From an uncultured Ignavibacteriales bacterium (GTDB taxonomy: Bacteria; Zixibacteria; MSB-5A5; GN15; FEB-12), in contig CAZILL010000001.1 of the NCBI GenBank assembly GCA_964540105.1, forward strand, positions 1,034,063 through 1,098,062: a stretch of 64,000 nucleotides of DNA. The letters run 5' to 3'. Under the pieces are notes generated by a model that saw nothing but the letters and a program-made list of their open reading frames with translations, was not told where the DNA came from and did no database searches. Position numbers and translations under genes: made by a program. Of this stretch, positions 44,189-63,669 are shown in pieces; the stretch's first letter is position 1, and the number at the start of each line of letters is the position of its first letter.

Positions 44189-44980
44189 ATGCGAATTGGC
44201 TCTTTATTCTCGCCGGACGCTTTTCCATCACTGTTGAATACCGATGCTTACTTCGAGAAACTGATGAGGGCAGAAGGTGCGAAAGCGCTCGTTGCAAACC
44301 AAATGATCCTACTCGCTTTGTTCTTGTTCATCTATGGTGCAGTGATGGGGGCGTATCACAGTCTCCTGCAAGCAGTCGTGGCAGGCGTGAAGCTCTCCAC
44401 GCTGTTCACACTCGCCCTGCTCATTTGCTTCCCGGCCTTCTTCATCGTCCAGTTCATTCTGGGATCTCGCCTGAAACTGCTTCAGATGATCCCAATGGTG
44501 CTGTCGGGGTTTCTGCTGATGGCTGCCATCATGCTCTCCTTTGTGCCCATTGTAGTAATCTTCCTGCTAACCGGCAGCAACTACTACTTTCTGCATCTAT
44601 TGCATCTCGCGGTGATGCTCTTCGCCGGCATATTCGGCATGAATACGATCGTTCAGGCGTTGAAGTACTCCTGCGAGAAGAAGGACATTTACCCGAGAAA
44701 CGGAGTGATCGTCTTTCGTGTCTGGGTAGTCATCCTGGCATTTGTCGGAGTCCAGCTTGCGTGGAGCCTAAGGCCGTTCATAGCAAAACAGAACCAGCCG
44801 TTTGAGTTGTTCGGCACATACGAAGGGAACTTCTACGCTGCTGTGATTTACTCAGCCAAACATCTGGTCGAACTTGATCAAGGGGCGCCGGCTACAGGGA
44901 ACGCAAGGCAGCCCGACTCCAGCTGCGTCGACACTTTGCAAACGCCTGGGGGGTGGCTTGACAGCCTTTATGGACGATGA
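44189..44980 (+). CDS. Polytopic membrane protein, unknown function
   Basis: I preferred the ATG at 44189, which follows TAAGGAGGTGACC, over the ORF-track start at 44132. There are six or more hydrophobic segments. I recognised no family. Confidence 0.55.
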   Translation: MRIGSLFSPDAFPSLLNTDAYFEKLMRAEGAKALVANQMILLALFLFIYGAVMGAYHSLLQAVVAGVKLSTLFTLALLICFPAFFIVQFILGSRLKLLQMIPMVLSGFLLMAAIMLSFVPIVVIFLLTGSNYYFLHLLHLAVMLFAGIFGMNTIVQALKYSCEKKDIYPRNGVIVFRVWVVILAFVGVQLAWSLRPFIAKQNQPFELFGTYEGNFYAAVIYSAKHLVELDQGAPATGNARQPDSSCVDTLQTPGGWLDSLYGR

Positions 44981-45197
44981 TGTCATGACGCTCGAAGAAG
45001 TGGCTGCGTATCTGAAACTTAAGCCCCAGACGATCTACACGTGGGCCAAGGAGAACCGCATCCCAGCCGCCAAATTGGGCAAAGAGTGGCGCTTTCGGAA
45101 ATCGATTATAGATAGATGGTTTGCGTCACACATCGACGCCAGGTTCAGTGATTTCATTGACTCTGATGAAAGTGAAGCCGCTTCTCGAGATGAATGA
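44970..45197 (+). CDS. Excisionase/MerR-superfamily helix-turn-helix DNA-binding protein
   Basis: MTLEEVAAYLKLKPQTIYTWAKENRIPAAKLGKEWRFRKSIIDRW is the HTH_17-type motif, followed by an acidic tail. I took the start at ATG 44970 (or 44985). It overlaps the upstream membrane-protein gene. Confidence 0.7.
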   Translation: MDDDVMTLEEVAAYLKLKPQTIYTWAKENRIPAAKLGKEWRFRKSIIDRWFASHIDARFSDFIDSDESEAASRDE

Positions 45198-51628: not shown

Positions 51629-52025
51629 ACGACAATCAAACCTTTCGTGGGGCGGATAAGTTTCCGCCTCGTTAGAAACTCCGCATCTGAGTCATTGATC
51701 AAACCATTGACGGGAAGATCATCCAAAAGAAACCCGGGTTCGACAATTGCCGCCCGGGTCAATGCAGATTCTAACAAGAATAACATGGAATGTTGAATTC
51801 TACAAGCCCTTTCTTGGACTTCTATGGAGAATGTCGGTCGTGGAGTCGGCCCCGCCGGAAGCAAGAGGTGAGTTGGCAGCAGATTGCCCTGCATTGACTT
51901 ACCAGTAGGAGTTGACGTCGTGAAGAGGATCAGCCTTTCAGTTTTTGTCGTTGACTTTCACTATCTATGATCGCAATTTGCTTAGAAACTACGAACCAGC
52001 AAAACCTGATATCGATGTAACCAAT

Positions 52026-53087
52026 ATGGGCAAACCAGCGGCTCGGATGGGAGATACAACAGTCCACGGCGGGACCATAGTGGTTGGGGCGCCGACGGTC
52101 CTGATCGGCGGCATGATGGCGGCTCGCGTGGGGGACATGCATGTCTGCCCCATGCTCAATCCCGGAGTGCCGCCACCACCCCACGTGGGAGGACCGATTA
52201 TGCCGCCCGGTGTTCCGACAGTCCTGATCTGTGGAACTCCGGCAGCCTGTGTCGGAGACATGGTCACCTGTGCCGGACCGCCTGACACGATCGCGCCTCC
52301 CGGTTGTCCGACCGTCATGATTGGAAGTGGCGGCGGCGGGGGCGGTGGAGCGGGCGCTGGCAGTGGTGGTCTTGACGTGGGACAGGGAGATAAGTCAAAA
52401 AGCTCCGAGCCGCCCAAAGGGCATTTCCTTGACGTCAGATTTGTCGACAAGGCGGGATTGCCAGTTGGCGGTGTCGAGTACGTGATCAAAGACCCAACAG
52501 GCGCCGTGACCACCGGCACCCTGTCGGGTCAACTGCGCAAAGGGGGAGTGCCCGAAGGGAACCATGAGATCATTCTGAAAGGGATCACGAAGGCGGAATG
52601 GTCGGTCAAGTCGGCTCGGGTCGGCGATACGGTGAAGCTCAAGGCGGAAACATCGGGAATCGATGACGGCGAAAAGGGGAGCTTCGACATCTTTATCAGG
52701 GAGTCGCGCTTCGCGCATACACTCTTGAAGACCATCGAGACCACAGTGCAGGGGGATAAGGTAGAGGCCGAATGGGAACTGCAAGTCGACGAAAAGTACC
52801 TCAACCTGCAGCGCGACAAACTTCAGAAAGGGGGTTATTCTTCCCCCACATTCTATTTCGTGGTCAAGACTCCCTACGGCGTTCGCCGCTCAGCCACGCT
52901 CGAGTATAAGGATTGGATCGAGCTGGAATATAAGAATGCCGAGGGGAAGCCGATGGCCAATAAAGAATACAAGCTCTTTCTCCCCAACGGGGAAGTGCGC
53001 AAAGGAAAGCTCGATGGCAACGGTTATGCCAAGATCAACAACGTTCCCCCCGGCCTGATCAAGGTGGTTGTGGATCCCCGGAAATAG
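52026..53087 (+). CDS. PAAR-domain spike-tip protein with a Gly linker and a roughly 240-aa C-terminal extension
   Basis: There are three PAAR motifs (KPAARMGD, MMAARVGD and TPAACVGD), each followed by a ...PTVLIGG/PTVLICG/PTVMIGS strand. A G-rich linker (GSGGGGGGGAGAGSGG) follows. The extension ends in short beta-rich segments, for example YKLFLPNGEVRKGKLDGNGYAKINNVPPG. I preferred the start at MGKPAAR (52026) over the TTG at 51945. Confidence 0.85.
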   Translation: MGKPAARMGDTTVHGGTIVVGAPTVLIGGMMAARVGDMHVCPMLNPGVPPPPHVGGPIMPPGVPTVLICGTPAACVGDMVTCAGPPDTIAPPGCPTVMIGSGGGGGGGAGAGSGGLDVGQGDKSKSSEPPKGHFLDVRFVDKAGLPVGGVEYVIKDPTGAVTTGTLSGQLRKGGVPEGNHEIILKGITKAEWSVKSARVGDTVKLKAETSGIDDGEKGSFDIFIRESRFAHTLLKTIETTVQGDKVEAEWELQVDEKYLNLQRDKLQKGGYSSPTFYFVVKTPYGVRRSATLEYKDWIELEYKNAEGKPMANKEYKLFLPNGEVRKGKLDGNGYAKINNVPPGLIKVVVDPRK

Positions 53088-53117: not shown

Positions 53118-56100
53118 ATGACCTTGCCGCCATCCAAAGTGAAGTTCGCCGTGACTTCAAAGGGAGCCCTGCCTCCGACGCATCAGAAATTCGAGGTGCA
53201 GCAGGAACGAACTGTGGTCCATATTCTCGAAATGGAAGACGTGCTGTTCCACCACGACAGCGCGGTCATGATGCCCGAGAATCCGGAGGGAACCTCTTCC
53301 ACACAAGGAGGGGGCGCCACCCCTGAGCAGACGAAGATCAGCGGCGTCAAAGCGCTGGCGCTTGTGTTTAAGCAGTTCGAGTTCAATCCAAAGCAGAAGA
53401 TCATCATCGCCGGTCACACCGATACCTCCGGCGGTGCGACCTACAATTTCAAGCTTTCGGACCTGCGCTCGAAGAATGTTCTCTATCTATTGATCGGTTC
53501 GCAGAACGACTGGGCGAAGATCTGCCACGAGAAGCAGAAGATTGAAGACCACAAGCAGATTCTGACCTGGGTGTTCAAGAAACGTCACTGGCCCTGTAAT
53601 CCCGGGTCAATCGATAACAATTGGGATAGTCCGCTCGAACAGGCGCTGACGGCCTTCGTCAACTACTATAACATGGAGTACGCCGACAAGAAGAAAGTGG
53701 CTCGTCTCGACGACAACATGGTCACAATCGTGAAAGCGGACGGCCAGAAGCGCTGGCCCGTCCAGCTTTGGGAAGCGGTATATAATCTGTATAACGACGA
53801 ATTGTGCGAGGTCCTTGCGGACACGCCGGAACAGCTGGACAAGCGCCGCCTTGACACCCTTAGGTTCGTCGAAGACTCCAAGCCCTATGTGGCGTGCGGT
53901 GAGTCCTTTCCGATTCAGGCCAAGGACAAGAGCGACTATCGTTCCCAGACCAATCGCCGCGTCGAGATACGCTTCTTCGATGAGGGAGAAGCGCCGGCGC
54001 TCGACTGCCCCAAGGATGTCAGCGCTGTTCACAAGGAGAAAGATTGCCCGCTCTATCACCCTGATCTCTACGACCCGAAGTATATCTCCCCAAGCGATCT
54101 CTATGCGGTCATGTACCATGTCTGCTTTCGATTCTATGATCGGATCGCCAAGAAGCTTCGAGATGTCCCGAGAGGAATCACGATCAAGGCTTTCGAGAAC
54201 GATACAGTTCCCGTCGACATCGTGCAGGAAGAGGTCGTCAAATCGAATGACTCCTGCGTCTATGCCCTCAAACTGCAATTCAAGACAGCCCTCAACGACC
54301 CGAACCGAAAGAAGCTTCATTTTGAATTCACCACCGACAGCCAGTGGGTTTTCACTGACAGCGACAAAGTCGCCCCGACCGTTGTCACCAAGAAAGTGGA
54401 TGAAGTTAAGAAACTCGCTCTGCCGGACCGGTTCAAGTATTACGACCTGCCATTGCGCTGGTCATCGCGGAATTACTGGACACGCTATGACGGAGACATG
54501 GCCACGGGAGAACGATTTGAAAACGTACTCACAGTACAGAAGAAGCTCAAGCCCTTTGGCGGGAATGTCACTGCCCCCGACACGCCCTTGATCTTCTGCC
54601 TGGACGACCTCGTACTTCTTGATGTCAAGGATGGCACTCAGAACATATATGACTGCGACCATATCCACCCCAACTGCGATGTTGTCGCTGTCGACAAGGG
54701 GAAACCGCTCTCGGAGAAGTCGCGCGTGAAGATTTTCTTCGTCGATCAGACCAAGGGACTGCTGAATCTGTATCAGCCCGATGCAACCAAGCCGATGTCA
54801 AGCCGCATTCCGTTCAAAGTCAACCTGCTGCCGACGAAGGCCGACGACTCAGCTAACGCCAGGATTGTCTTCTTCCGGGACGGTTTCTATACAATCGGCG
54901 ACAAGCGAGCTGTGGCCGACGCCTCCTACGATCCGGCGAAACATGTTCTTGGGGCGCGGGCAGCAGTCAGAAACGACACCGACTTTCATCTCCATTGGCC
55001 GATGGGATACAATCACACCGAGTTCGGCTCAACCGGTGATTACGATCTGCATTATTTCCATCACCAGCATCTTGACGGCAAACATCCGGTCTCGTACACC
55101 ATCTCCTATGTGTCGATCAGTTTCATGATTGACTCGAGGAGACAGCCCGCGAATCCTCCGGCTCCTGCCGCCCCCATTAATCCCAAACCTTCGAAGGCCG
55201 ATGTCAAGCAGTTCGTCGATGAATTCGTCTACGACGCTGTCCGTCATTGGAACAAGAAGCAATACTTCCTCGAAGAAAAACCGGTGACGGAGACCTCGGT
55301 CGTCATTCGCCCCTTCTACTTTTTCGATGAACGCGAGACCTTTGTCGTCCCCGATCCGCAGCCGGACAACATCGACTTCGACACCAGACCCGACCCCGCT
55401 CATCCGGCTGTCTCGAATTTCACGGAACTGTTCTCAAACGTCAAAGCCCCGTCCATTCTCAAAGCGCGCCAAGATGCGCTCGGGGGAAAGTCAAAGTTCC
55501 TGGCGCTGGTGTGTCGTGATGAAAACGGACACTGGGGACCCGCGTATCAGTGGGCGATCCGCACCGAAGGGTATCTCTACTCATTGTTCAAACTCAACAA
55601 GTCGGGAGGTACTGACCAGAACGACGTCTTCAATCCCAAGGTACCCGTCACCGAACACGGGGACTCTTTCGGGGCGCACACGATGGCTCATGAACTGGGG
55701 CATGCTACAGGACAGCCCGATGAGTATGTCAAGACGCTCTACAAGCCGGACCCCAACGACAACTATGCGTCCCCGGATTTCGACCAATTCATGATCCAGT
55801 TATCGATGCCGGAGAACGTGACCTCAATGATGTTCCATAATGGTGCGCCTCGCTTGCACCATTTATGGTATCCGATGCACCAAATAATGGAAGCGACCAA
55901 AGCGGCCCCGCTGAAAACGCTCCTTCCCGACAAGACTTTTGTGGCTCGCCTGAAACGGGACACCTGGGATATCACCTACACGCGTTCGCTGACGGCCGTC
56001 GGTCCCTCGACCCGTCCCGCCGACATGGCTCTGCCAATGGCTCAAACGGCACAGTTTGAAGTCGCCCACTCGCCGCTCAAACGCCTGAATCTGGCGCTCT

Positions 56101-56651
56101 ACGATGTGGGGAAAGACGAATCGTCAATCAAGTACTTCCACCCCAACCAGGACGCCGCGCCAAGCCCTATTCAGTATCAGGCTGTGCTGGTTGTTCGATT
56201 GCTGCTGAGCTGTCAATTCACTCACGGCGCCTGGACCGGCAATCAACAGGCCGTTCGCGTGTTCCGGCTTCAACAACAATGGGAGTCATACGAGACCCCC
56301 TCAAACCCACCAGCCGGCAAGGGTTACTTTCGATTGGTGGGCGGATCCGGTGAGATCAAGAACATTTTCGTGCATTTTATGGCCGGCTTTCTCCCTTCGA
56401 ATTCCACGAGCGCCGCCTTGGCCAACAACAACTACGCCCTTGACTTCCATCACGCCAACGCGCCTGCGACCGGGACGAGAATCCCGAACACGGGCGGTTC
56501 CGTCATTATCTATGACAATGTAACGGCGGACGAATTTGTGCGCTATGCGCTGAACATAATCAATCCGGCGGCGCCGCTGGGTCAAATGAGCTATCTTAAG
56601 ACATGGACCGACGCCCGCCTGGGCGATTCCTATACTCTGGAGCAGTTCTGA
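53118..56651 (+). CDS. Leaderless 1177-aa protein: interrupted OmpA-like peptidoglycan-binding domain plus C-terminal HExxHxxGxxD zinc-metallopeptidase motif (candidate T6SS cargo effector)
   Basis: The OmpA_C blocks VLFHHDSAVMMPE, IIIAGHTDTSGGATYNFKLSDLRSKNV and RSQTNRRVEIRFF are separated by an insert of about 130 aa. That insert contains PGSIDNNWDSPLEQALTAFVNYYN, which resembles PG_binding_1. HTMAHELGHATGQPDEY lies at nt 55689-55727. There is no signal peptide or TM segment. Confidence 0.7.
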   Translation: MTLPPSKVKFAVTSKGALPPTHQKFEVQQERTVVHILEMEDVLFHHDSAVMMPENPEGTSSTQGGGATPEQTKISGVKALALVFKQFEFNPKQKIIIAGHTDTSGGATYNFKLSDLRSKNVLYLLIGSQNDWAKICHEKQKIEDHKQILTWVFKKRHWPCNPGSIDNNWDSPLEQALTAFVNYYNMEYADKKKVARLDDNMVTIVKADGQKRWPVQLWEAVYNLYNDELCEVLADTPEQLDKRRLDTLRFVEDSKPYVACGESFPIQAKDKSDYRSQTNRRVEIRFFDEGEAPALDCPKDVSAVHKEKDCPLYHPDLYDPKYISPSDLYAVMYHVCFRFYDRIAKKLRDVPRGITIKAFENDTVPVDIVQEEVVKSNDSCVYALKLQFKTALNDPNRKKLHFEFTTDSQWVFTDSDKVAPTVVTKKVDEVKKLALPDRFKYYDLPLRWSSRNYWTRYDGDMATGERFENVLTVQKKLKPFGGNVTAPDTPLIFCLDDLVLLDVKDGTQNIYDCDHIHPNCDVVAVDKGKPLSEKSRVKIFFVDQTKGLLNLYQPDATKPMSSRIPFKVNLLPTKADDSANARIVFFRDGFYTIGDKRAVADASYDPAKHVLGARAAVRNDTDFHLHWPMGYNHTEFGSTGDYDLHYFHHQHLDGKHPVSYTISYVSISFMIDSRRQPANPPAPAAPINPKPSKADVKQFVDEFVYDAVRHWNKKQYFLEEKPVTETSVVIRPFYFFDERETFVVPDPQPDNIDFDTRPDPAHPAVSNFTELFSNVKAPSILKARQDALGGKSKFLALVCRDENGHWGPAYQWAIRTEGYLYSLFKLNKSGGTDQNDVFNPKVPVTEHGDSFGAHTMAHELGHATGQPDEYVKTLYKPDPNDNYASPDFDQFMIQLSMPENVTSMMFHNGAPRLHHLWYPMHQIMEATKAAPLKTLLPDKTFVARLKRDTWDITYTRSLTAVGPSTRPADMALPMAQTAQFEVAHSPLKRLNLALYDVGKDESSIKYFHPNQDAAPSPIQYQAVLVVRLLLSCQFTHGAWTGNQQAVRVFRLQQQWESYETPSNPPAGKGYFRLVGGSGEIKNIFVHFMAGFLPSNSTSAALANNNYALDFHHANAPATGTRIPNTGGSVIIYDNVTADEFVRYALNIINPAAPLGQMSYLKTWTDARLGDSYTLEQF

Positions 56652-56657
56652 AAAGAG

Positions 56658-57860
56658 ATGATGCACGCAAAGCGATGGCTGCTGTTGTTTGGAGTGGCGC
56701 TGATGCCCGCAGCTTCATGCCATTCGGGCAAACAGGAGGTAACCGTGGCTAACCCCGTCTTACTTAACACAACCTTGTATGGCGATCGCCAGAATAGCTC
56801 CTCGCTTCCCGTCGACGGCCGACCGGACGGCGAAGCGGTCTGGGAGAAGCCGTCGATCCTGGCCGATCAGCCGCGCCCGGCTCTTCATTTGGCGATTGCC
56901 GATTCACTTCTCCTGGTATCGTACGGGGGAGTGATCGACGCTCGTCGGCTCGACAACGGTGAGCCGATCTGGCGCCGCCAGGTAGGTGGAAACGCACTCT
57001 TTGATCTGAGGCCAGAAGGGCTCGTGACCCTCGATCCTGGCGGCTTCTATCAACTCATCGCCATGAACCAGAAACTGACAGAACCGATCTCTTTGCCGTT
57101 TCTCTCATCAAAGGCAATTCTCCACTATAGCCGCCGTCTTGGGGATGAAATGCTTTATTGCTACGAGAGTATCCCTACGCCCACCAACAGCCCGGGCGAT
57201 GAATTCGGCGGCCCCAACTTCTCTCTGTATCGTTTCAATCTCAAAACCGATGATTTCGCGTGGCAATTCCGGCGACCTGAGAATGTTGTCACAGTCATAG
57301 AATCACCTGATGGCGCGCAGGTTGGGGTAGCAACCGGCCAGAATCTGTATCTACTCCCTGCTGAGGCTCGCTCAGACAGCGCAGTCTCGACGATCAGCTT
57401 CACACGTCTGGTTTCCTGTTCATGCGACCACGCCGCACGGATTCTCGCAGTCGTGGAGTTCCCGCAGGAAGAAGGTGGGCTCACCCTGCAGGCAATCAAC
57501 GCCAAGCACGAAGTGGAGTGGAAATTACCTCTTGGTGAGACGGTCCCGTCCCTGCAGCCGCCATCCGTCGGTCCCGGGGATGCCATCTACTTGATAGTAG
57601 ATGCCAAATTGCTGAGCGTAAGCGCTGGGGCAATCACGTGGACAGCGCCTATTCCGGGTAACGCCAACGAAGCTCGACTGACCGTGCTGAAAGATGGCTC
57701 GGTCCTCTGTGCCGCAGGAAGAACCCTGCTGCACATTTCATCACGAGGCGACATCCAGATGAACAAGCCGCTCAAAGAGGCGGCAACCTGTCGACCGATC
57801 ATGGACTCTCGCGGTCGAGTGATTGTCGCGGGACTGAACAGTGTAATCTGTATTGAGTGA
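56658..57860 (+). CDS. Lipoprotein with a BamB/PQQ-like beta-propeller appearance (candidate immunity protein)
   Basis: A signal peptide plus lipobox-like MPAASC is present. Repeated roughly 40-aa strand-rich units have W/G patterns (GEPIWRRQVGG, DFAWQF, EVEWKLPLG and ITWTAPIPG). The function is contextual inference. Confidence 0.55.
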   Translation: MMHAKRWLLLFGVALMPAASCHSGKQEVTVANPVLLNTTLYGDRQNSSSLPVDGRPDGEAVWEKPSILADQPRPALHLAIADSLLLVSYGGVIDARRLDNGEPIWRRQVGGNALFDLRPEGLVTLDPGGFYQLIAMNQKLTEPISLPFLSSKAILHYSRRLGDEMLYCYESIPTPTNSPGDEFGGPNFSLYRFNLKTDDFAWQFRRPENVVTVIESPDGAQVGVATGQNLYLLPAEARSDSAVSTISFTRLVSCSCDHAARILAVVEFPQEEGGLTLQAINAKHEVEWKLPLGETVPSLQPPSVGPGDAIYLIVDAKLLSVSAGAITWTAPIPGNANEARLTVLKDGSVLCAAGRTLLHISSRGDIQMNKPLKEAATCRPIMDSRGRVIVAGLNSVICIE

Positions 57861-58309
57861 GGATTCAAGATATGGCGCAAACGACCACCATGCCCACTTT
57901 CTCTCTCCTCCCTCCCAATGGTTGGGAGGATCAGACTGTCTATACGTTTAGGGGTCCCGACGACAGCGGGCATCAGCACTTTGTGACCTTGACCATCGAC
58001 CCCTCACCGGGCTCCGATGATGTCGCTGAATTCGCCCGAGTGCGGATCGATGCCACCCTCACCACTCTGCAGGGAGCTGAAACCCTCAAAGACGAGCCGA
58101 AAGAGCTTCCGAACGGTAATCCGGCTCATGAGTGTGTCTATAAGTGGATACCGGTTGACGGGACGGTGCGGTTCGTGAAGATTGTCTTTCTGTTGATTGG
58201 CGGTCGCGGGTACACATTCTCGGGGACTTTCTCCAGAAAGACCATCAAGACCATTGCCCTCGAGATGGATCAGATGGTGAACAGCTTCACTCCAACGCTT
58301 TCCAAATGA
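57857..58309 (+). CDS. DUF1795 (DcrB/Eag-type effector chaperone family)-like protein
   Basis: PTFSLLPPNGWEDQTVYTFRGP...FVTLTIDP...L..F...RIDATLTTLQG...YTFSGTF fits the DUF1795 F-x-LP-x-GW-x-D-x-T/S-V opening and size (about 145 aa). The GTG at 57857 overlaps the upstream stop; an alternative ATG lies at 57872. Confidence 0.6.
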   Translation: MRIQDMAQTTTMPTFSLLPPNGWEDQTVYTFRGPDDSGHQHFVTLTIDPSPGSDDVAEFARVRIDATLTTLQGAETLKDEPKELPNGNPAHECVYKWIPVDGTVRFVKIVFLLIGGRGYTFSGTFSRKTIKTIALEMDQMVNSFTPTLSK

Positions 58310-58325
58310 GTGAACGAAGATAGCC

Positions 58326-59192
58326 ATGGAACTGAAATTCTCCAAAGCCACTGACACGCCGCATAAGATCAAACTGGAATCGGACCTGATCGAAACCAGC
58401 TGGGCGAGTGGCGTCGCATATATGGGACTGCCGGCCGCATTTGTCGTTCGGACCTCCTTTGTCGGCAATGGCGCATCGGTCGAAGTCACGGGTAAGTCCG
58501 ATAAGGGGAAGAAGTGCGGTAAAGTCAAGGGTGAGATTTCCAACAACGCCTTCATGGGCGCTCTGGATATTCCCGACAATCTTGACCCAAAGGACAAGGT
58601 CTATTTCGAAGTGAAGCTCCCCAAGCATGGCCTGAACGGGGATTCGGACCTCATCCCGGTCAAGCCTGGTGTGCTCGTGACGAACATGAAGTGGAGCGCC
58701 AAAGAGGCGCGGCGTGGAGAGATTCTCACCCTTTCGGCCGACGTCCGTGGGGCTGCCGACGATACCGAGGTTCTGGTCACGATATACGAGTTTGATCGGG
58801 ACAGTATCCACGACAAGATTGCCGAGCTGAAGGCGGTGGTGAAGAACCAGCAGATCAGGTTGGACTGGGAGTATCAGTACTTCGAGGACACCGACGAAAT
58901 CCCGTCCGACGCCGAGCTGCAGCGATACGGTCGCAGCTACAACCCGCCGGAGTACTTTTTCACGGTGAAAGTGGAGAAGCAGGAATTCGGCAAGAAGCAA
59001 CAGGACTCCGGCCTGCTGGAGTTCAAAGACTGGATCGAGATTGAGGCTATTGATGACAGCGGACAGCCGATCAAGAATGCCAAATACAAAGTAACCCTCC
59101 CCGATGGAACTGAGCGAGAAGGTAGTCTCGATCAAAACGGACGGGCGCGCCTGGAGGATATTCCTCCCGGTGAATTCACCGTGGATCTCTGA
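58326..59192 (+). CDS. Hypothetical protein paralogous to the C-terminal extension of the PAAR protein (candidate adaptor)
   Basis: Residues about 122-288 align by eye with PAAR-protein residues about 217-380 (ORF-track numbering). Matching pairs are KWSAKEARRGEILTLSADVRG/EWSVKSARVGDTVKLKAETSG, RLDWEYQ/EAEWELQ, YFFTVKV/FYFVVKT, LEFKDWIEIE/LEYKDWIELE and KYKVTLPDGTEREGSLDQNGRA/EYKLFLPNGEVRKGKLDGNGYA. Confidence 0.6.
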   Translation: MELKFSKATDTPHKIKLESDLIETSWASGVAYMGLPAAFVVRTSFVGNGASVEVTGKSDKGKKCGKVKGEISNNAFMGALDIPDNLDPKDKVYFEVKLPKHGLNGDSDLIPVKPGVLVTNMKWSAKEARRGEILTLSADVRGAADDTEVLVTIYEFDRDSIHDKIAELKAVVKNQQIRLDWEYQYFEDTDEIPSDAELQRYGRSYNPPEYFFTVKVEKQEFGKKQQDSGLLEFKDWIEIEAIDDSGQPIKNAKYKVTLPDGTEREGSLDQNGRARLEDIPPGEFTVDL

Positions 59193-59369
59193 TGGATTTT
59201 ACGAATAGCTCGACGATTGGCGATTTGTGAATGATGCTCACAAGGGACGCTCATGTGTGATGGCAGCAGAGGCCGTGCCAGAGGCCGGAGCGGCGGGCGA
59301 ACCCGCGTAACGGTCGAACCGCAACTCGTGGAGCCAGCGGTCAGAGTGTCGCGCGTCTCCGTGCAGGAC

Positions 59370-60485
59370 ATGGCCGAGACGCATCATGTCGGCACACTCA
59401 CAAACACCTTTCATGGCGAGAATTTCAGCCAGGAAGAACAGCGCATCGCATTGGAGGCTAACGCTCTTTTCGAAGTCGCTCTCAACGTCCGAACCGTGAA
59501 TTACGTGACCGTTGTTCGACCACGCCGAGCGGGGGCAGCCGCCGCTGCCGGTGAGTTTATGCTCTTTAATGTCGTGCCCAACACCAATACCGGCACACTT
59601 GATATCTTCAAAATTGGCACCCCTCCGACCGCCCTCCCGAGTGACAACGACGTAGCGACCGTCACGCGGCGCTTGAATAGTTATGGAATCGCTTTCGACA
59701 ACGCCTGGCGAGACCAGGATAAGCGCGTCGCCTTGATGGCTCTCAACATATTGACCGATCAGGAACTTGAGCGTGTTCGGGGGCTTCACTTTCGGCGCAG
59801 AGGTACCGCGCCTCCTGAGGTTCATCAAAACGAATCTGAGCAAGAGGGGGGCGCCTATTGGGATAGCCAGCACACGGTGGACATATATAACCTCGGTATG
59901 GTTAATGGCGCGCTCATGTCGCTTGGCACGAATTCGACGAATCTCCTGCCGGGCTGTGCGCAGACAGTCCTGCATGAGGTAGGGCATGCTCTCGCGTTTG
60001 CCGAAGTCCGGCTCGCCGGCGAACGAAATCGTGAGGCACGGGCAAACCTCTTGAGGGAACGCGAGCGAATTTCTAATCGCTGGCCCGACTATTTCAGGGT
60101 CCGAAACCCGGATCCCGACCACTACGAGTATCAGTACGAGCAACCAAGCACGGTGCCGACCAGCGATCGGCCTGCCTATAGTTCTGACCTACAGAGCCTC
60201 AGGAGTGCAGAGAATGCCTTTTCAACAGCCAATCGCAGTTACACCGGCATGGACCAAAGCCACATGGCTGCAGATTTCCAGCGGATCCAGCGTCAGTTGG
60301 CTCCAGTGACTCCGTACAGCCGAACACGGCGCGCCAATATGGGGCGAGATGCCGAGCGCGTCCGGGCTGCATCGGAAGAGTTCCTGGCCGACAGCTTTGC
60401 CATATACCGATGGAATCCGGAGTGGCTTCGTGCCAATCGCCGAACCGTTTTTGACTTTTTCGACCAGAACCGTCATCTTCGATGA
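59370..60485 (+). CDS. Leaderless HExxH zinc-metallopeptidase-like protein (candidate second effector)
   Basis: TVLHEVGHALAFAE (HEVGH at nt 59973-59987) is present, with possible downstream ligand or stabilising Glu residues (EEFLADSFAIY). There is no signal peptide. I preferred the start at MAETHH (59370). The ORF-track start at 59253 adds an Arg/Gly-rich low-complexity leader. Confidence 0.55.
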   Translation: MAETHHVGTLTNTFHGENFSQEEQRIALEANALFEVALNVRTVNYVTVVRPRRAGAAAAAGEFMLFNVVPNTNTGTLDIFKIGTPPTALPSDNDVATVTRRLNSYGIAFDNAWRDQDKRVALMALNILTDQELERVRGLHFRRRGTAPPEVHQNESEQEGGAYWDSQHTVDIYNLGMVNGALMSLGTNSTNLLPGCAQTVLHEVGHALAFAEVRLAGERNREARANLLRERERISNRWPDYFRVRNPDPDHYEYQYEQPSTVPTSDRPAYSSDLQSLRSAENAFSTANRSYTGMDQSHMAADFQRIQRQLAPVTPYSRTRRANMGRDAERVRAASEEFLADSFAIYRWNPEWLRANRRTVFDFFDQNRHLR

Positions 60486-60647
60486 ATCAGCGAAATGGGC
60501 TATCGACAGGTATACTCCAGAACAAACCGCTTGACATAGTAGGTCGGTAATGCGGATATTTCTGATCGCACAGTCCGGCCCTTTGGGATGAATGCCGGAA
60601 GGTAACTGTTCCAGAAGATATAAGAGGCAAGGATTGCGGTATAACGA

Positions 60648-62105
60648 ATGGATATAGCTAATTACTCTTCCGACGCTCGCGCAGTGATCAAGAATGCCCG
60701 CGAAGTTGCGGCCAGCTTCCGGCACCCGGAAATCTACATCGAACATCTGCTCATGGCGACCATCCGCCATGAAGGCTCAGAAGTTGAGTCAATCCTCAAC
60801 CAGCTTGGCAAGAGCAAAGTGTTCGTCGAATCAATCATCGAAGAACATCTCAAATCTCAACCCTCCAAGATGTCAGCTCGTGACAATCTCACTATCGCGC
60901 CACCGGTGCAGGATGTGCTCATTCAGGCGATCGAGGAAAAGGCCAAGCTGTTCGATGCTCTCGTTGAACCACATCATATCTTCATCGCGATTCTCGACCC
61001 GAAATCGCATCTCTCCGGTTACATTCGCGAGAAAATCGACATTACGAAGGAAGATATCTATCGCGGCATCGCGGAAAGCAAGTCGGTGGCCGAAATCACG
61101 TCGAAAACGACCGTTGCTGGAGCCACGGGTGGTTCCGAAGCCACAGGAGAGGTGGCCGGAACCCTGCGCTATTGCATCGATCTGACCAACCAGGCGGCCG
61201 CCGGTGAGTTCGACGTGTGCGTGGGGCGCGAAAAGGAAGTTCAGCAGGTCATCCAGATTCTTCTTCGCCGCCGGAAAAACAGCCCGATCCTCGTCGGGGG
61301 AGCTGGTGTCGGGAAAACCGCCATTGTCGAAGGATTTGCGCGGGCGATCATCGATAAGAAAGTTCCCGCCGCCCTGTGTGATGCTAAAGTCATGGGGGTC
61401 GACATGGGGGCGTTGGTCGCTGGGGCCAAGTACAAAGGGGAATTCGAAGAGCGCTTCAAGAGTTTGGTCAGCGAAGTGGTCAAGACGGCGGGCAAGATCA
61501 TCCTGTTCATCGACGAAATCCACACCATCGTCGGCGCCGGTAACGGGGGAGGCGGCATGGACGCTGCTAATCTGCTCAAGCCCGCGCTGGCGCGCGGTCA
61601 GATTCGGCTGGTAGGCGCAACCACCGAAGAGGAATACATCAAGTACATCGAGAAGGACAAAGCCCTCGACCGGCGTTTTGAAAAGGTCAAGGTCGCTCCT
61701 CCGAATTACGATGAAGCTGTCCGTATTGTCAGCGGAGTCATTCCCAAGTACGAAACCCACCACAAGATTGTCTACTCCGCGGAAGCCATTACCGGATCGG
61801 TTCGTTACGCCCAGCGATACCTCAGCGAACGAAATCTCCCTGATATCGCGCTTGATATCATCGACGAAGCCGGGTCGGAGTTCAGCGTGAAAGAGGAGTT
61901 CGCCCGAGTAATCGTGCCGACGATCTCAACGCAGATCACGGAAATCGAGAAACTGGTTGCCGCGTGTGAAGGCAAGAGGGTGGCGACGGACAAGGAACCG
62001 TTTGACAAACTAAACATGGCCTACACCGAATTCACCCGCCTGGTTGACCGTCTTCAAGGTTACTGGGGACATCGTGCCGAAGTGGCGAAGGAGGCGAAGT
62101 CATGA
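60648..62105 (+). CDS. clpV: ClpV/ClpB-type AAA+ ATPase, N-terminal half (Clp_N domain, D1 ring, first part of middle domain)
   Basis: Clp_N repeats (ARAVIKNAREVAASFRHPEIYIEHLL) are present. D1 Walker A is GGAGVGKTAIVEG and Walker B is IILFIDEIHTIVGAG. KPALARGQIRLVGATT and a coiled-coil tail follow. It stops inside the middle domain. Confidence 0.85.
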   Translation: MDIANYSSDARAVIKNAREVAASFRHPEIYIEHLLMATIRHEGSEVESILNQLGKSKVFVESIIEEHLKSQPSKMSARDNLTIAPPVQDVLIQAIEEKAKLFDALVEPHHIFIAILDPKSHLSGYIREKIDITKEDIYRGIAESKSVAEITSKTTVAGATGGSEATGEVAGTLRYCIDLTNQAAAGEFDVCVGREKEVQQVIQILLRRRKNSPILVGGAGVGKTAIVEGFARAIIDKKVPAALCDAKVMGVDMGALVAGAKYKGEFEERFKSLVSEVVKTAGKIILFIDEIHTIVGAGNGGGGMDAANLLKPALARGQIRLVGATTEEEYIKYIEKDKALDRRFEKVKVAPPNYDEAVRIVSGVIPKYETHHKIVYSAEAITGSVRYAQRYLSERNLPDIALDIIDEAGSEFSVKEEFARVIVPTISTQITEIEKLVAACEGKRVATDKEPFDKLNMAYTEFTRLVDRLQGYWGHRAEVAKEAKS

Positions 62106-63208
62106 CCGCCGCTCCATTGGATTTCAAGGGTATCAAGCAGGACTTTGAACAGAGAATTGCCCAATTCAATCGACTGCGGGGGGTTGTTGAGAAGCTCGAG
62201 AAGAAGATCGAAGACGCGGACATCGCCGCCGTTGTCGCTCGCCGGACCGGCATCCCGCTTTCCAAGATGCTGACGGCCGAGAAAGATCGGCTGGTCAACA
62301 TGGAGTCGTTCCTGTCGGCCAAAATCATAGGTCAGGACAAAGCGATCAGCGCGATTGCCAATGCCGTCCGCAAAGCAAGAGCCGGACTGAAGATGCCGAA
62401 CCGACCCGTGGGGAGTTTCCTCTTCCTCGGTCCGACCGGTACCGGCAAGACGTATCTGCCGAAACTGCTCGCCGAATTCCTCTTCGACGATAAGAACGCG
62501 ATGGTACGCTTTGATATGTCCGAGTACATGGAAACCCATTCCGTCGCCAAGATGATCGGCGCTCCGCCCGGGTATGTCGGCTACGAAGCCGGGGGCATGC
62601 TGACCGAGGCCGTGCGCAAGAAGCCGTTCTCGATTGTCCTGTTCGACGAGGTCGAAAAGGCGCACCCCGACGTCTTCAATATACTGTTGCAGTTGCTTGA
62701 TGACGGCCGTCTTACGGACGGTCAGGGACGCACCGTCGATTTTTCCAACTGTCTGGTCGTCCTCACCTCGAATTATGCCGCCGACAAAATTCTCGACGCC
62801 GACCGTGAGGGGCGCGACCTCGACATGGATGAGGTTCGGGCGTTCCTCTTCACCAAGTTCCGCCCGGAACTGCTGAACCGTCTGAACGACATCATTATTT
62901 ATCACTCATTCAAGATGGAACAGATCGAGGTTATCGCCGGACTGGAATTCGATTCTCTGGTGAAACTGCTGAAAGATCAGAACATCAACGCCACCCTGAG
63001 CACCGAAGCGCGCAAGAAACTCGCCCGCGATGGCTACACGTTCGAACTGGGGGCGCGCCCCATTCAACGCATCATCGAGAAGGAGGTCATCAACAAGCTC
63101 TCGGTCGATATCATCACGGGAACTGTTGAACCGGGTGATCACGTTATGGTTGATATCGTAAACGACGCGTACGTGTTCACAAAGAAACCGAAAACGACCA
63201 TCGAGTAG
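62102..63208 (+). CDS. clpV: ClpV/ClpB-type AAA+ ATPase, C-terminal half (rest of middle domain, D2 ring, C-terminal domain)
   Basis: IAAVVARRTGIPLSKM and IIGQDKAISAIANAVRKARAGL are present. D2 Walker A is FLGPTGTGKTYL and Walker B is IVLFDEVEKAHPDVFN; sensor-2 is GARPIQR. The ATG overlaps the upstream stop as ATGA, and AAGGAGG ends 7 nt upstream of it. Confidence 0.85.
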   Translation: MTAAPLDFKGIKQDFEQRIAQFNRLRGVVEKLEKKIEDADIAAVVARRTGIPLSKMLTAEKDRLVNMESFLSAKIIGQDKAISAIANAVRKARAGLKMPNRPVGSFLFLGPTGTGKTYLPKLLAEFLFDDKNAMVRFDMSEYMETHSVAKMIGAPPGYVGYEAGGMLTEAVRKKPFSIVLFDEVEKAHPDVFNILLQLLDDGRLTDGQGRTVDFSNCLVVLTSNYAADKILDADREGRDLDMDEVRAFLFTKFRPELLNRLNDIIIYHSFKMEQIEVIAGLEFDSLVKLLKDQNINATLSTEARKKLARDGYTFELGARPIQRIIEKEVINKLSVDIITGTVEPGDHVMVDIVNDAYVFTKKPKTTIE

Positions 63209-63228: not shown

Positions 63229-63669
63229 ATGGGAAAATTTATGCTCGGCGCCTCGGAACGAATCCAGAAGGATGATTCAATACCCGTTGAACTCCTTCCC
63301 TCGAACAAGATCTTGTACGCCGCAAAACTCAACAGTGATCAGGACGCCGATGTCACTCCGACACGGTGCAACAACCTCAAAGACGTGTTTGAGAAATTCC
63401 GCCCAGAGTTTTCCGTAGAAATGGAAAATACGCAGGGGGAACAGGTGAACGCATCATTCGAAATTCGCGCAATGAAGGATTTCACCTCGAAAGAACTGAT
63501 CGAAAAGAACGACCATCTGTCCAAGACCTATTATGGCAAATCGATGATGGACGATCTCGAGACCCAGTTGAAGAAGAACAACGCTCTGAAGAAAACGCTT
63601 GAAGACAAGCAGAAGAAAGAAGCTCTCCTAAAGGTCGCCAAGTACTATATCGACCTGCTGAGCGAATAA
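63229..63669 (+). CDS. tssB: T6SS contractile sheath small subunit-like protein (TssB/VipA-like)
   Basis: It is 146 aa with GGAGGT 6 nt upstream. By-eye resemblances to VipA blocks are VELLPSNKILYAAKL (cf. ELPLKTLVVGDF), NLKDVFEKFRPEFSVEMEN and FEIRAMKDFTSKELIEKNDHL (cf. LNFKSLADFAPDAV). It lies between clpV and a probable tssC. Confidence 0.6.
   Translation: MGKFMLGASERIQKDDSIPVELLPSNKILYAAKLNSDQDADVTPTRCNNLKDVFEKFRPEFSVEMENTQGEQVNASFEIRAMKDFTSKELIEKNDHLSKTYYGKSMMDDLETQLKKNNALKKTLEDKQKKEALLKVAKYYIDLLSE

What the first reader, a model, noticed from the sequence alone, without database searches (positions are those of the whole stretch)
52593..53087. The roughly 165-aa C-terminal module of the PAAR protein is duplicated as the C-terminus of a free-standing protein 5.6 kb downstream
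PAAR-protein residues about 217-380 (nt 52593..53087) and residues about 122-288 of the 288-aa protein (nt 58689..59192) align block by block:
- EWSVKSARVGDTVKLKAETSGIDDGE / KWSAKEARRGEILTLSADVRGAADDTE
- VEAEWELQ / IRLDWEYQ
- PTFYFVVKT / PEYFFTVKV
- LEYKDWIELEYKNAEGKPMANKEYKLFLPNGEVRKGKLDGNGYAKINNVPPG / LEFKDWIEIEAIDDSGQPIKNAKYKVTLPDGTEREGSLDQNGRARLEDIPPG

The terminal roughly 55 aa look like a small prealbumin/transthyretin-like or carboxypeptidase-regulatory-like beta-sandwich. Transthyretin-like extensions on PAAR and VgrG are known effector-docking adaptors.

A fused copy plus a free copy, each placed directly before a different HExxH protein, suggests a modular, swappable adaptor that matches cargo to the spike.
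Basis: partly seen in the sequence, partly recalled or inferred. Interest (0 to 1): 0.55.

Follow-up and report, generated by a model that had tools for sequence, protein, structure and literature searches.

The report
Shared cargo-carrier cassette on T6SS spike proteins
The repeated segment is real, but it is not a local duplication: it is an ancient two-domain beta-sandwich cassette carried by two conserved type VI secretion proteins (a PAAR spike tip and a free protein paired with an Eag-like chaperone), each sitting just upstream of a variable toxin gene, which most likely makes it an undescribed toxin-loading adaptor of uncultivated Zixibacteria and Ignavibacteria.

Summary
PAAR residues 214-374 align with residues 118-286 of the 288-aa protein (33% identity, BLASTP E=1e-27; profile-profile E=2e-25 and 2e-33). 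There is no DNA-level repeat.

It is not a recent duplication. Both proteins belong to large conserved families (50-77% identity, hundreds of members). They co-occur in 39 of 40 related T6SS loci of Zixibacteria, Ignavibacteria and Krumholzibacteriota, in the order PAAR+cassette, variable cargo, DcrB/DUF1795, 288-family protein, variable cargo, split ClpV, TssB, TssC, TssD, VgrG.

The shared unit has two domains: an Ig/macroglobulin-like sandwich (D2) and a small TTR/CarboxypepD_reg-like sandwich (D3).

Evidence for a cargo-carrier or adaptor role:
- Both carriers are followed within about 20 nt by highly variable, effector/immunity-like genes (67/78 and 46/51).
- Orphan copies outside T6SS clusters show the same pattern.
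- Several independent fusions join carrier and cargo in one polypeptide.
- D3, but not D1, covaries with the downstream cargo family.
- The cassette also occurs on Hcp and after an Rhs core.

HExxH is incidental, and direct binding is untested. I rate this a new variant of a known kind (TTR-type spike adaptors), of moderate interest.

The parts
52026..53087 (+). PAAR spike-tip protein with a C-terminal extension. It is 353 aa from ATG 52026 (MGKPAARMGD...). The open frame reaches back to TTG 51945, and other gene callers start at 52047 or later.
   Evidence: Pfam PAAR_motif E=9e-22. PDB sequence hits to PAAR proteins SalCis10, 8gra and 4jiw. More than 1000 homologs of ~350 aa at 50-67% identity.
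52026..52328 (+). PAAR cone domain
   Evidence: Model m3ec49f5666fb residues 1-101, pLDDT about 85-94.
52332..52415 (+). Gly-rich disordered linker
   Evidence: pLDDT below 50 for residues 103-130; sequence GSGGGGGGGAGAGSGG.
52416..52559 (+). TTR1, an extra small sandwich homologous to D3
   Evidence: hhalign TTR1 vs D3: probability 97%, E about 1e-11 against both families.
52560..52904 (+). D2 of the PAAR protein, an Ig/macroglobulin-like sandwich with an inserted helix
52905..53084 (+). D3 of the PAAR protein, a TTR/CarboxypepD_reg-like sandwich
53118..56651 (+). Slot-1 cargo: 1177-aa protein with an OmpA-like peptidoglycan-binding domain and an HELGH zincin motif at residue 858
   Evidence: Pfam OmpA E=2e-6. 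Weak M6 metalloprotease domain hit. HExxH position. Homologs follow PAAR+cassette in 31 loci.
56658..57860 (+). 400-aa protein, a putative lipoprotein and likely immunity partner of the 1177-aa protein (inferred)
   Evidence: Co-occurs with the 1177 family in 29 of 31 loci. Weak PQQ_2/BamB-like hit. N-terminal signal-like sequence with a Cys at position 21.
57857..58309 (+). DcrB/DUF1795 (Eag-like) protein
   Evidence: Pfam DcrB 31.1 bits, above the 27.2 cut-off. Lies immediately upstream of the 288-family gene in 64 of 77 cases.
58326..59192 (+). Free-standing 288-aa carrier: N-terminal peptide, D1, D2, D3
   Evidence: At least 688 homologs at 55-77% identity over the full length. 177 GTDB species hits. 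Model pLDDT 87.6.
58326..58382 (+). Conserved N-terminal peptide (residues 1-19), predicted non-globular
   Evidence: Near-invariant K7, T9, D10, H13 and L17. pLDDT 59-71.
58383..58670 (+). D1 sandwich, specific to the free family and possibly a distant D2 relative
   Evidence: hhalign D1 vs PAAR D2: probability 38%, E=3e-4.
58671..59012 (+). D2 of the free protein, strongly acidic
   Evidence: Mean net charge -11.7 across the family.
59013..59189 (+). D3 of the free protein, TTR/CarboxypepD_reg-like
   Evidence: Pfam CarboxypepD_reg E=4e-4 and SpaA E=5e-4. Covaries with slot-2 cargo.
59253..60485 (+). Slot-2 cargo: 410-aa protein with an HEVGH motif at residue 241
   Evidence: No Pfam or NCBIfam family. 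Only one homolog among the loci, L032, in the same slot.
60648..63208 (+). ClpV encoded as two ORFs (60648..62105 and 62102..63208)
   Evidence: The split is conserved in 37 loci and the gene is fused in 6.
63229..63669 (+). TssB-like small sheath subunit. TssC, TssD, VgrG and TssE follow beyond the window.
   Evidence: L085 is the same locus in another assembly.

Best explanation
The shared ~165-aa segment is a two-domain cassette: D2, an Ig/macroglobulin-like sandwich, followed by D3, a small TTR/CarboxypepD_reg-like sandwich. It most likely works as the cargo-holding arm of two parallel effector carriers in a T6SS-iii-like system.

Carrier 1 is the spike tip itself: PAAR, Gly linker, TTR1, D2, D3. 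It carries the product of the next gene. Here that is the 1177-aa OmpA-like/HExxH protein, which is neutralised in the producer by the 400-aa lipoprotein.

Carrier 2 is the free 288-aa protein: conserved N-terminal peptide, D1, D2, D3. It is made next to an Eag-like DcrB/DUF1795 protein and carries the next gene's product, here the 410-aa HExxH protein. The N-terminal peptide and D1 would attach carrier 2 to an ejected part of the machine, with the DcrB protein acting as chaperone.

By analogy with VgrG TTR domains, cargo would dock on D3 (and perhaps D2) by edge-to-edge beta-strand pairing.

Shown here: the homology, the predicted folds, the conserved synteny, the variable cargo slots, the carrier-cargo fusions and the D3-cargo covariation. 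Inferred: physical binding, which surface binds what, the DcrB chaperone role, and secretion itself.
For: 1. Homology is robust, and the models show matching sandwich domains.

2. In 80 GTDB loci the order PAAR+cassette, X, DcrB, 288-family, Y, ClpV, TssB, TssC, TssD is conserved. 39 of 40 main loci with enough upstream sequence have both paralogs.

3. X and Y are hypervariable. There are more than 30 BLAST-unrelated families, often as large+small gene pairs like effector-immunity pairs. 67 of 78 288-family genes and 46 of 51 PAAR+cassette genes are followed within 200 nt (median gap about 20 nt) by a same-strand ORF of at least 150 aa.

4. Orphan 288-family genes among housekeeping genes, without DcrB or T6SS genes nearby, are still followed directly by a large variable ORF (L031, L040, L074, L079, L084).

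5. Independent fusions join carrier and cargo:
- P0378 = PAAR, TTR1, D2, D3 plus OmpA-like effector.
- P0362 = TTR1, D2, D3 plus a 1177-like protein (E=7e-34).
- P0290 and P0364 = N-terminal peptide, D1, D2, D3 plus OmpA-like effector.
- P0359 = 288-family plus a slot-2 cargo family (E=1e-11).
- P0325 = 288-family plus a metallo-beta-lactamase fold.

6. One cargo family occurs in slot 1 in L018 and in slot 2 in L027 and others (E=3e-26), so the slots are interchangeable.

7. After regressing on TssC identity, D3 of the free protein is more similar between loci with the same slot-2 cargo (+0.067, permutation p=0.002). The N-terminal peptide and D1 show no such effect (-0.005, -0.008), and D3 does not track slot-1 cargo (+0.014, n.s.). 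In the PAAR protein, D2 and D3 track slot-1 cargo (+0.08, +0.07, p=0.002) more than the PAAR domain does (+0.018, p=0.10).

8. The cassette also sits on other ejected components: Hcp (P0345) and after an Rhs core (P0303). The PAAR+cassette/OmpA-effector pair also occurs in a T6SS-i type locus (L003).

9. There is precedent. TTR domains of VgrG dock cargo in EAEC VgrG1-Tle1 and P. aeruginosa VgrG2b-Tle3 (PMC7376260). A TTR plus Ig-like edge-to-edge strand pairing is described for A. baumannii VgrG17-Tae17 (PMC11796386).
Against: - No binding data exist, and no complex prediction was possible.
- The carriers are well conserved while cargo is extremely diverse. I found no shared N-terminal docking motif in cargo by BLAST or by eye. 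There is only a mild basic bias in the first 30 residues.
- D3 does not move with cargo between the two families: the PAAR D3 of L018 clusters with other PAAR D3s.
- D3-cargo covariation could reflect recombination tracts that include the 3' end of the carrier gene, rather than co-adaptation. A control also behaved badly: PAAR domains correlate with slot-2 cargo, which shows residual relatedness in the data.
- In fused proteins no docking is needed, yet the cassette is kept.
- Slot 2 is nearly empty in L019, L059 and L072.
- Tandem arrays of up to 6-7 cassettes (P0253) and a Dit-like fusion (P0274) look more like stalk or adhesin modules.
- An Rhs protein carries TTR1, D2, D3 where the toxin normally sits.
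Confidence: 0.6

Rival explanations
1. The cassette is a passive structural or adhesive decoration. It would be a rigid Ig-like/TTR-like stalk or a weak surface-glycan or peptidoglycan binder on ejected T6SS parts and on some cargo, comparable to Ig-like decorations on phage virion proteins. It would not recognise cargo specifically. Cargo would instead be recruited by other parts, such as the PAAR cone, VgrG or the DcrB protein.
For: - Foldseek finds only generic tandem sandwich proteins: complement/alpha-2-macroglobulin MG domains, pilins, and phage Big/FN3 virion proteins. TM-scores are 0.2-0.35 and identity about 10%.
- Tandem arrays of 2-7 cassettes occur (P0253, P0254, P0259).
- There is a fusion to a Dit-like/DUF6046 tail protein (P0274).
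- The cassette is retained between carrier and toxin in single-chain fusions where docking is unnecessary.
- No common cargo motif was found.
Against: - The effect is domain-specific: D3 covaries with the adjacent cargo while D1 and the N-terminal peptide do not.
- Free carrier genes are tightly and near-universally adjacent to variable cargo, including orphan copies.
- The free family is strongly conserved (55-77% identity), which is unusual for a mere spacer.
Confidence: 0.2
2. The 288-aa family, together with its DcrB partner, is a lineage-specific core or assembly component of this T6SS, or is itself a delivered non-enzymatic factor. The variable genes downstream would simply occupy the locus's hypervariable region without depending on it.
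For: - It is present in essentially every main locus, at a fixed position next to clpV.
- Conservation across phyla is high.
- It is retained where slot 2 is almost empty (L019, L059, L072).
- An Rhs protein carries TTR1, D2, D3 in the payload position.
Against: - Orphan copies far from T6SS genes always bring their own variable downstream ORF.
- There are repeated gene fusions with cargo families that are elsewhere encoded separately.
- It is less conserved than the sheath: D2 about 61% against TssC about 78% identity for the same locus pairs.
Confidence: 0.15
3. The similarity comes from a recent local duplication or gene conversion within this genome and has no functional meaning.
For: The only support is that the two copies lie 5.6 kb apart on the same strand.
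Against: - Amino-acid identity is 33% and there is no DNA repeat.
- Each copy is closer (55-77% and 50-67%) to orthologs in other phyla than to its paralog.
- Both are syntenic in 39 of 40 loci.
Confidence: 0.01

Closest known systems
TTR (transthyretin-like) C-terminal extensions of VgrG/PAAR that dock cargo effectors (EAEC VgrG1-Tle1; P. aeruginosa VgrG2b-Tle3 and VgrG2a-Tle4; A. baumannii VgrG17-Tae17)
   Same: In both cases a small beta-sandwich is appended to a spike protein, the cognate cargo is encoded next to it, and the C-terminal part of the carrier is tied to cargo identity. An Ig-like domain and a TTR domain acting together through edge-to-edge strand pairing is described for VgrG17-Tae17 (PMC11796386; PMC7376260).
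   Different: - Here the unit has two domains (Ig-like D2 plus TTR-like D3), with an extra TTR1.
- It sits on PAAR after a long Gly linker, not on VgrG. The VgrG of this locus is only 578 aa.
- It also exists as a free-standing three-domain protein.
- Binding has not been demonstrated.
- The system is T6SS-iii-like, in uncultivated FCB phyla.
Eag (DUF1795/Pfam DcrB) chaperones of prePAAR effectors
   Same: A DcrB/DUF1795 gene lies immediately upstream of, and is probably co-translated with, a T6SS-delivered client. Pfam DcrB is the HMM used to define Eag chaperones (PMC7773334).
   Different: Known Eag clients are evolved PAAR effectors with N-terminal transmembrane helices. Here the adjacent client has no PAAR domain and no hydrophobic segment (max KD19 1.23). 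The PAAR protein of the locus is not adjacent to the DcrB gene.
RIX-domain 'secreted adaptors' of Vibrionaceae (Kanarek et al. 2023, PMC10435454)
   Same: A conserved N-terminal module is found either fused to diverse toxins or as a stand-alone protein that enables delivery of a cargo effector encoded downstream.
   Different: There is no sequence or fold relationship. RIX is a short arginine-rich domain, whereas this carrier is three beta-sandwich domains. The taxon and T6SS subtype also differ.
BtapC/Ate3 adaptors of Bacteroidota T6SS-iii (Li et al. 2025, PDB 9jg8; PMC13402684)
   Same: Both are accessory proteins of T6SS-iii that load cargo onto a PAAR or PAAR-like/VgrG spike. Both are encoded beside variable effectors.
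   Different: [quoted passage not shown] The proteins here are tandem closed sandwiches. Only a weak Foldseek match to 9jg8_C was found (E=7e-4, TM 0.24/0.32).

Membership tests
PAAR (Pfam PF05488) | PAAR-repeat cone domain detected by the family HMM | tested here: met
   77.5 bits against a cut-off of 27, E=9e-22. The family profile hits solved PAAR proteins 9rce_c, 8gra_J and 4jiw_D.
CarboxypepD_reg (PF13620) / prealbumin-like SpaA (PF17802), i.e. 'TTR-like' D3 | Score at or above Pfam's gathering threshold | tested here: inconclusive
   The window 288-aa protein scores 21.0 bits (cut-off 32.3) and 20.5 bits (cut-off 23.1). The window PAAR protein has no hit. Relatives with several cassettes pass clearly (P0254 113.7 bits, P0272 58.3 bits).
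CarboxypepD_reg / TTR-like fold | Small beta-sandwich of about 6-7 strands | tested here: met
   Six strands in residues 231-287 of the 288-aa model and in residues 292-349 of the PAAR model, pLDDT about 90. This is a prediction only.
Spike-borne TTR cargo-docking extension | Located C-terminal to a spike protein, with the cognate cargo gene adjacent | tested here: met
   The order is PAAR, linker, TTR1, D2, D3. 46 of 51 such genes are followed within 200 nt by a large ORF.
Spike-borne TTR cargo-docking extension | Direct physical binding of cargo to the TTR domain | not testable with these tools
   No complex prediction or experiment was available. The indirect support is fusions and covariation.
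Eag/DUF1795 chaperone-effector pair | Chaperone matches the DcrB/DUF1795 HMM | tested here: met
   31.1 bits against a cut-off of 27.2. Precomputed DcrB hits appear in L001, L003 and L004.
Eag/DUF1795 chaperone-effector pair | Client carries prePAAR plus N-terminal transmembrane helices | tested here: not met
   No 19-residue window reaches a typical TM hydropathy in the 288-aa (1.23) or 410-aa (0.95) proteins. The PAAR protein has a contiguous AARxxDxxxH at its very N-terminus but no TMD. Its maximum of 1.60 lies inside the PAAR fold.
BtapC/Ate3 adaptor family | [quoted passage not shown] | tested here: not met
   The models are three (288-aa protein) or three plus PAAR closed sandwiches. The match to 9jg8_C is weak.
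T6SS subtype iii locus | Bacteroidota-type TssC (PF17541) and TssD (PF17642) | tested here: met
   Precomputed Pfam hits in L085, the same locus in another assembly, and in L001. TssN/O/P were not examined.
RIX/MIX/FIX marker domains | Sequence match to the marker domain | not tested
   No profile for these domains was available in the libraries used. The resemblance is functional only (PMC10435454).

The most novel reading that the evidence does not exclude
The T6SS of Zixibacteria, Ignavibacteria and Krumholzibacteriota uses a dedicated two-arm loading system built from one paralogous cassette. One arm is covalently on PAAR. The other is a free protein that an Eag-like chaperone, with no transmembrane client, delivers to the spike, so that two unrelated effectors are co-loaded per firing. 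Under this reading the D1-D2-D3 protein and the D2-D3 cassette act as a general marker domain. That marker would reveal hundreds of unknown effector families in uncultivated FCB phyla, and would give DUF1795 proteins a new type of client.
Probability: 0.2. Interest if true: 0.7.

Novelty: new variant of a known kind. Interest (0 to 1): 0.55.

Why it matters
T6SS effector loading is well mapped in Proteobacteria and is only starting to be mapped in gut Bacteroidota. Nothing is described for Zixibacteria, Ignavibacteria or Krumholzibacteriota: my literature searches found no relevant paper.

If the cassette is a loading adaptor, the 288-aa family and the PAAR+cassette family become simple genomic markers. 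The gene immediately downstream of either would be a candidate effector. In about 80 loci alone this already yields more than 30 unrelated families, most without any Pfam annotation.

It would also extend the TTR-docking principle in two ways: from VgrG to a two-domain unit on PAAR, Hcp and Rhs, and to a DUF1795 protein working with a client that has no transmembrane helices.

Tried and rejected
1. A free 155-aa cassette next to a short PAAR in L003 looked like a third, minimal architecture. Translation in three frames shows it is one PAAR, TTR1, D2, D3 gene broken by a frameshift.

2. Charge complementarity. The window PAAR cassette has pI 9.07 and the free cassette pI 4.54, which suggested homotypic pairing of the two arms. 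Across families PAAR D2 is also acidic on average (-4.9), so the complementarity is not conserved. I dropped this as evidence.

3. D3 swapping with cargo between families was not seen. L018 PAAR D3 groups with other PAAR D3s, and only one locus (L004) has a cross-type D3.

4. A shared N-terminal docking motif in cargo was not found by BLAST clustering or by inspection. There is only a mild basic bias (+3.75 and +2.29 over residues 2-31, against +1.33 for later genes).

6. The Cys-rich N-termini of P0257, P0259, P0261 and P0361 look by eye like a DUF4280 PAAR-like domain. Neither Pfam at E<=1 nor a PDB sequence search confirmed this, so I leave it unverified.

7. The PAAR-cassette-only homolog search found just 12 hits because of the word index. 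The full-length query showed that the family is large.

8. The Li et al. 2025 paper on BtapC is not held in the library.
Full report
**1. The observation**

The + strand of window 51.9-63.7 kb carries nine genes in a row:
- a PAAR protein (ORF 51945..53087; likely start ATG 52026);
- a 1177-aa protein with an OmpA-like domain and an HELGH motif (53118..56651);
- a 400-aa putative lipoprotein (56658..57860);
- a 150-aa DcrB/DUF1795 protein (57857..58309);
- the 288-aa protein (58326..59192);
- a 410-aa protein with an HEVGH motif (59253..60485);
- ClpV as two ORFs (60648..62105 and 62102..63208);
- a TssB-like protein (63229..63669).

BLASTP of the PAAR protein against the 288-aa protein gives PAAR 214-374 against 118-286, 33% identity over 169 columns, E=1e-27. 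Profile-profile alignment of the two family alignments gives E=2e-25 for the first shared domain and E=2e-33 for the second. There is no DNA repeat between the two coding regions.

**2. Anatomy**

The 288-aa protein was modelled with 58 homologs (pLDDT 87.6). The model shows:
- a non-globular but highly conserved N-terminal peptide (residues 1-19; K7, T9, D10, H13 and L17 near-invariant);
- three beta-sandwich domains: D1 (20-115), D2 (116-229, with a conserved acidic loop and helix around 183-209) and D3 (230-288).

The PAAR protein was modelled with 59 homologs (pLDDT 84.7). It consists of a PAAR cone (1-101), a disordered Gly-rich linker (103-130), a small sandwich TTR1 (131-178), then D2 (179-293) and D3 (294-353).

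D2 and D3 are the shared unit. TTR1 is itself homologous to D3 (probability 97%, E about 1e-11). D1 is at best a distant relative of D2 (probability 38%).

D3 gives weak CarboxypepD_reg and prealbumin-like Pfam hits in the window protein and strong ones in multi-cassette relatives.

Foldseek against the PDB and against viral models returns only generic tandem Ig/macroglobulin/FN3 proteins, at TM 0.2-0.35. Neither Pfam nor NCBIfam has a family for D1-D2.

**3. Not a local duplication**

- The 288-aa protein has at least 688 full-length homologs at 55-77% identity.
- The PAAR+cassette protein has more than 1000 homologs of ~350 aa at 50-67% identity.
- A scan of GTDB species genomes found 177 loci. 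The 80 I retrieved come from Zixibacteria, Ignavibacteria/Ignavibacteriales, Krumholzibacteriota, GN15 and other FCB-group MAGs.

Annotating those loci with the window's proteins shows one conserved order: PAAR+cassette, variable region, DcrB, 288-family, variable region, ClpV, TssB, TssC, TssD. VgrG and TssE follow. TssC and TssD match the Bacteroidota-type Pfam families PF17541 and PF17642, so the system is T6SS-iii-like.

Of 40 main loci with enough upstream sequence, 39 have both paralogs. The paralogy is therefore ancient and maintained.

**4. Two cargo slots**

The region between PAAR+cassette and DcrB (slot 1) and the region between the 288-family gene and clpV (slot 2) are hypervariable.
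- Slot 1 holds the 1177-like protein plus the 400-like protein in 31 and 29 loci respectively. Elsewhere it holds at least ten other families.
- Slot 2 holds about twenty families. The 410-aa family occurs only in the window and in L032.
- Many slots contain a large gene plus a small gene, as effector-immunity pairs do.

Adjacency is tight:
- 67 of 78 288-family genes and 46 of 51 PAAR+cassette genes are followed within 200 nt (median about 20 nt) by a same-strand ORF of at least 150 aa.
- 64 of 77 288-family genes are preceded directly by DcrB.

One ~800-aa cargo family occupies slot 1 in L018 and slot 2 in L027 and other loci (E=3e-26).

Orphan 288-family genes lie among housekeeping genes, without DcrB or T6SS neighbours. 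These are still followed directly by a large variable ORF.

HExxH is thus incidental to this genome's cargo, not a property of the system.

**5. Fusions and other architectures**

An exhaustive profile search with the D2-D3 cassette found 4850 representatives at E<=1e-3 and 258 at E<=1e-30. I assigned domains to the top 146 with family HMMs. D2 is always followed by D3, which makes this a true two-domain cassette.

Besides the two main architectures there are:
- PAAR, TTR1, D2, D3 fused to an OmpA-like effector (P0378);
- TTR1, D2, D3 fused to a 1177-like protein (P0362; E=7e-34 to slot-1 cargo);
- full 288-family proteins fused to OmpA-like effectors (P0290, P0364), to a metallo-beta-lactamase fold (P0325), to a slot-2 cargo family (P0359; E=1e-11) and to unknown C-terminal regions (P0333, P0335, P0361);
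- Hcp plus D2-D3 (P0345);
- an Rhs protein with TTR1, D2, D3 after the DPIGLLGG core (P0303);
- a Dit-like/DUF6046 protein plus D2-D3 (P0274);
- tandem arrays of up to 6-7 cassettes. One of these (P0253) has an N-terminus homologous to a slot-1 cargo family (E=1e-21).

The PAAR+cassette/OmpA-effector pair also occurs in a canonical T6SS-i locus (L003). There the PAAR gene is frameshifted.

Repeated, independent fusions of carrier and cargo that are elsewhere separate neighbours are classic evidence for a physical or functional partnership.

**6. Covariation**

I regressed pairwise identity of each domain on TssC identity, as a proxy for relatedness, and on whether two loci share the same cargo family.

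For the free protein against slot-2 cargo:
- D3: +0.067, permutation p=0.002;
- D2: +0.018;
- D1: -0.008;
- N-terminal peptide: -0.005.

D3 does not track slot-1 cargo (+0.014, not significant).

For the PAAR protein against slot-1 cargo:
- D2: +0.081 and D3: +0.070, both p=0.002;
- TTR1: +0.033;
- PAAR cone: +0.018, p=0.10.

This points to the C-terminal cassette, and D3 in particular, as the cargo-linked part. There are two caveats. A cross-control (PAAR domains against slot-2 cargo) was also positive, so relatedness is not fully removed. Recombination tracts covering the 3' end of the carrier gene together with the cargo would give the same pattern.

D3 is not exchanged between the two families along with cargo.

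**7. Mechanism proposed**

The most likely reading (confidence about 0.6) is that D2-D3 is the cargo-holding arm of two parallel carriers.

The PAAR protein places one arm at the spike tip, on a flexible Gly linker. The free protein supplies a second arm, and its N-terminal peptide and D1 attach it to an ejected component. The adjacent Eag-like DcrB protein would act as its chaperone.

Docking would resemble the TTR/Ig-like edge-to-edge strand pairing described for VgrG17-Tae17 and VgrG1-Tle1 (PMC11796386; PMC7376260).

In the window, cargo 1 is the 1177-aa OmpA-like zincin, which is probably periplasm-acting given its peptidoglycan-binding domain and lipoprotein partner. Cargo 2 is the 410-aa HEVGH protein.

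The homology, folds, synteny, slot variability, fusions and covariation are shown here. Binding, attachment sites, the chaperone role and secretion are all inferred.

**8. Rivals**

- A passive stalk or adhesive decoration (about 0.2) fits the generic folds, the tandem arrays, the Dit-like fusion and the retention of the cassette in single-chain fusions.
- A lineage-specific core or assembly component (about 0.15) fits the near-universal presence and the retention next to empty slots (L019, L059, L072).
- Recent duplication is excluded.

**9. Comparison with known systems**

The closest kind is the TTR extension of VgrG/PAAR. This case differs in being a two-domain unit, in sitting on PAAR after a long linker (the locus's VgrG is only 578 aa), and in having a free-standing paralog.

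The DcrB gene meets the Eag family HMM (PMC7773334), but the defining client features are absent. The neighbouring client has no PAAR domain and no transmembrane helices.

Functionally the free protein resembles RIX 'secreted adaptors' (PMC10435454). The T6SS-iii adaptors BtapC/Ate3 have a different fold: an 11-strand open barrel (PMC13402684), with only a weak Foldseek match to 9jg8_C.

My literature searches found no description of T6SS loading in these phyla or of this cassette.

**10. Verdict**

The feature is a new variant of a known kind, of moderate interest (0.55). Its main value is as a marker for undiscovered effectors in uncultivated FCB phyla, and as a possible new client type for DUF1795 proteins.

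Noticed in passing
window 60648..63208: ClpV is encoded as two ORFs with an ATGA overlap: Clp_N + AAA D1 + lid (485 aa) and AAA_2 D2 + D2-small (368 aa). The same split is present in 37 related loci, and the gene is fused in 6. It is therefore a conserved gene split, not a sequencing error.
   Followed up: partly
window 59253..60648: The 410-aa HEVGH protein has no immunity-like gene after it, with only about 160 nt to clpV. Its single homolog (L032) is equally alone. It may not be an antibacterial toxin, or its immunity gene may lie elsewhere.
   Followed up: no
window 53118..57860: The 1177-aa OmpA-like/HELGH protein and the 400-aa putative lipoprotein (signal-like N-terminus with Cys21, weak PQQ_2/BamB-like hit) co-occur in 29 of 31 loci. 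This looks like a periplasm-acting effector with its immunity protein.
   Followed up: partly
window 51945..52047: The PAAR start codon is ambiguous. The ORF opens at TTG 51945. ATG 52026 gives the typical MGKPAARxGD N-terminus. One gene caller used 52047 (346 aa, L085), and the database copy P0133 is only 295 aa.
   Followed up: partly
L003 9394..10468: In a T6SS-i type locus (VipB, T6SS_HCP, TssF/G, VgrG) the PAAR, TTR1, D2, D3 gene is interrupted by a frameshift and was called as two genes. It is followed by a 1291-aa OmpA-like protein.
   Followed up: yes
window 58326..58382 and family alignment A1: The first 19 residues of the 288-aa family are nearly invariant at several positions yet modelled with low confidence. 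This suggests a linear binding peptide whose partner is unknown.
   Followed up: no
L031, L040, L045, L074, L079, L084: Orphan 288-family genes sit among housekeeping genes, without DcrB or T6SS genes within 10 kb. Each is followed by a large variable ORF. L040 and L045 have two copies flanking a ~795-aa ORF.
   Followed up: partly
family alignments (D2/D3 of both families): The free family's cassette is always acidic (mean net charge D2 -11.7, D3 -4.6). The window's PAAR cassette is unusually basic (pI 9.07) compared with its own family (D2 mean -4.9).
   Followed up: yes
P0257, P0259, P0261, P0361 (database proteins): These proteins begin with a Cys-rich ~110-aa domain (e.g. AICMCPHGG ... 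GC ... PC) followed by one or two D2-D3 cassettes and sometimes an OmpA-like region. By eye it resembles a DUF4280 PAAR-like domain, but no Pfam or PDB match confirmed this.
   Followed up: partly
window 44874..45197: A 107-aa ORF carries a helix-turn-helix segment of the excisionase/MerR-like kind (TLEEVAAYLKLKPQTIYTWAKENRIPAAKLGKEWRF). It lies just upstream of carB and was seen only in the ORF list.
   Followed up: no
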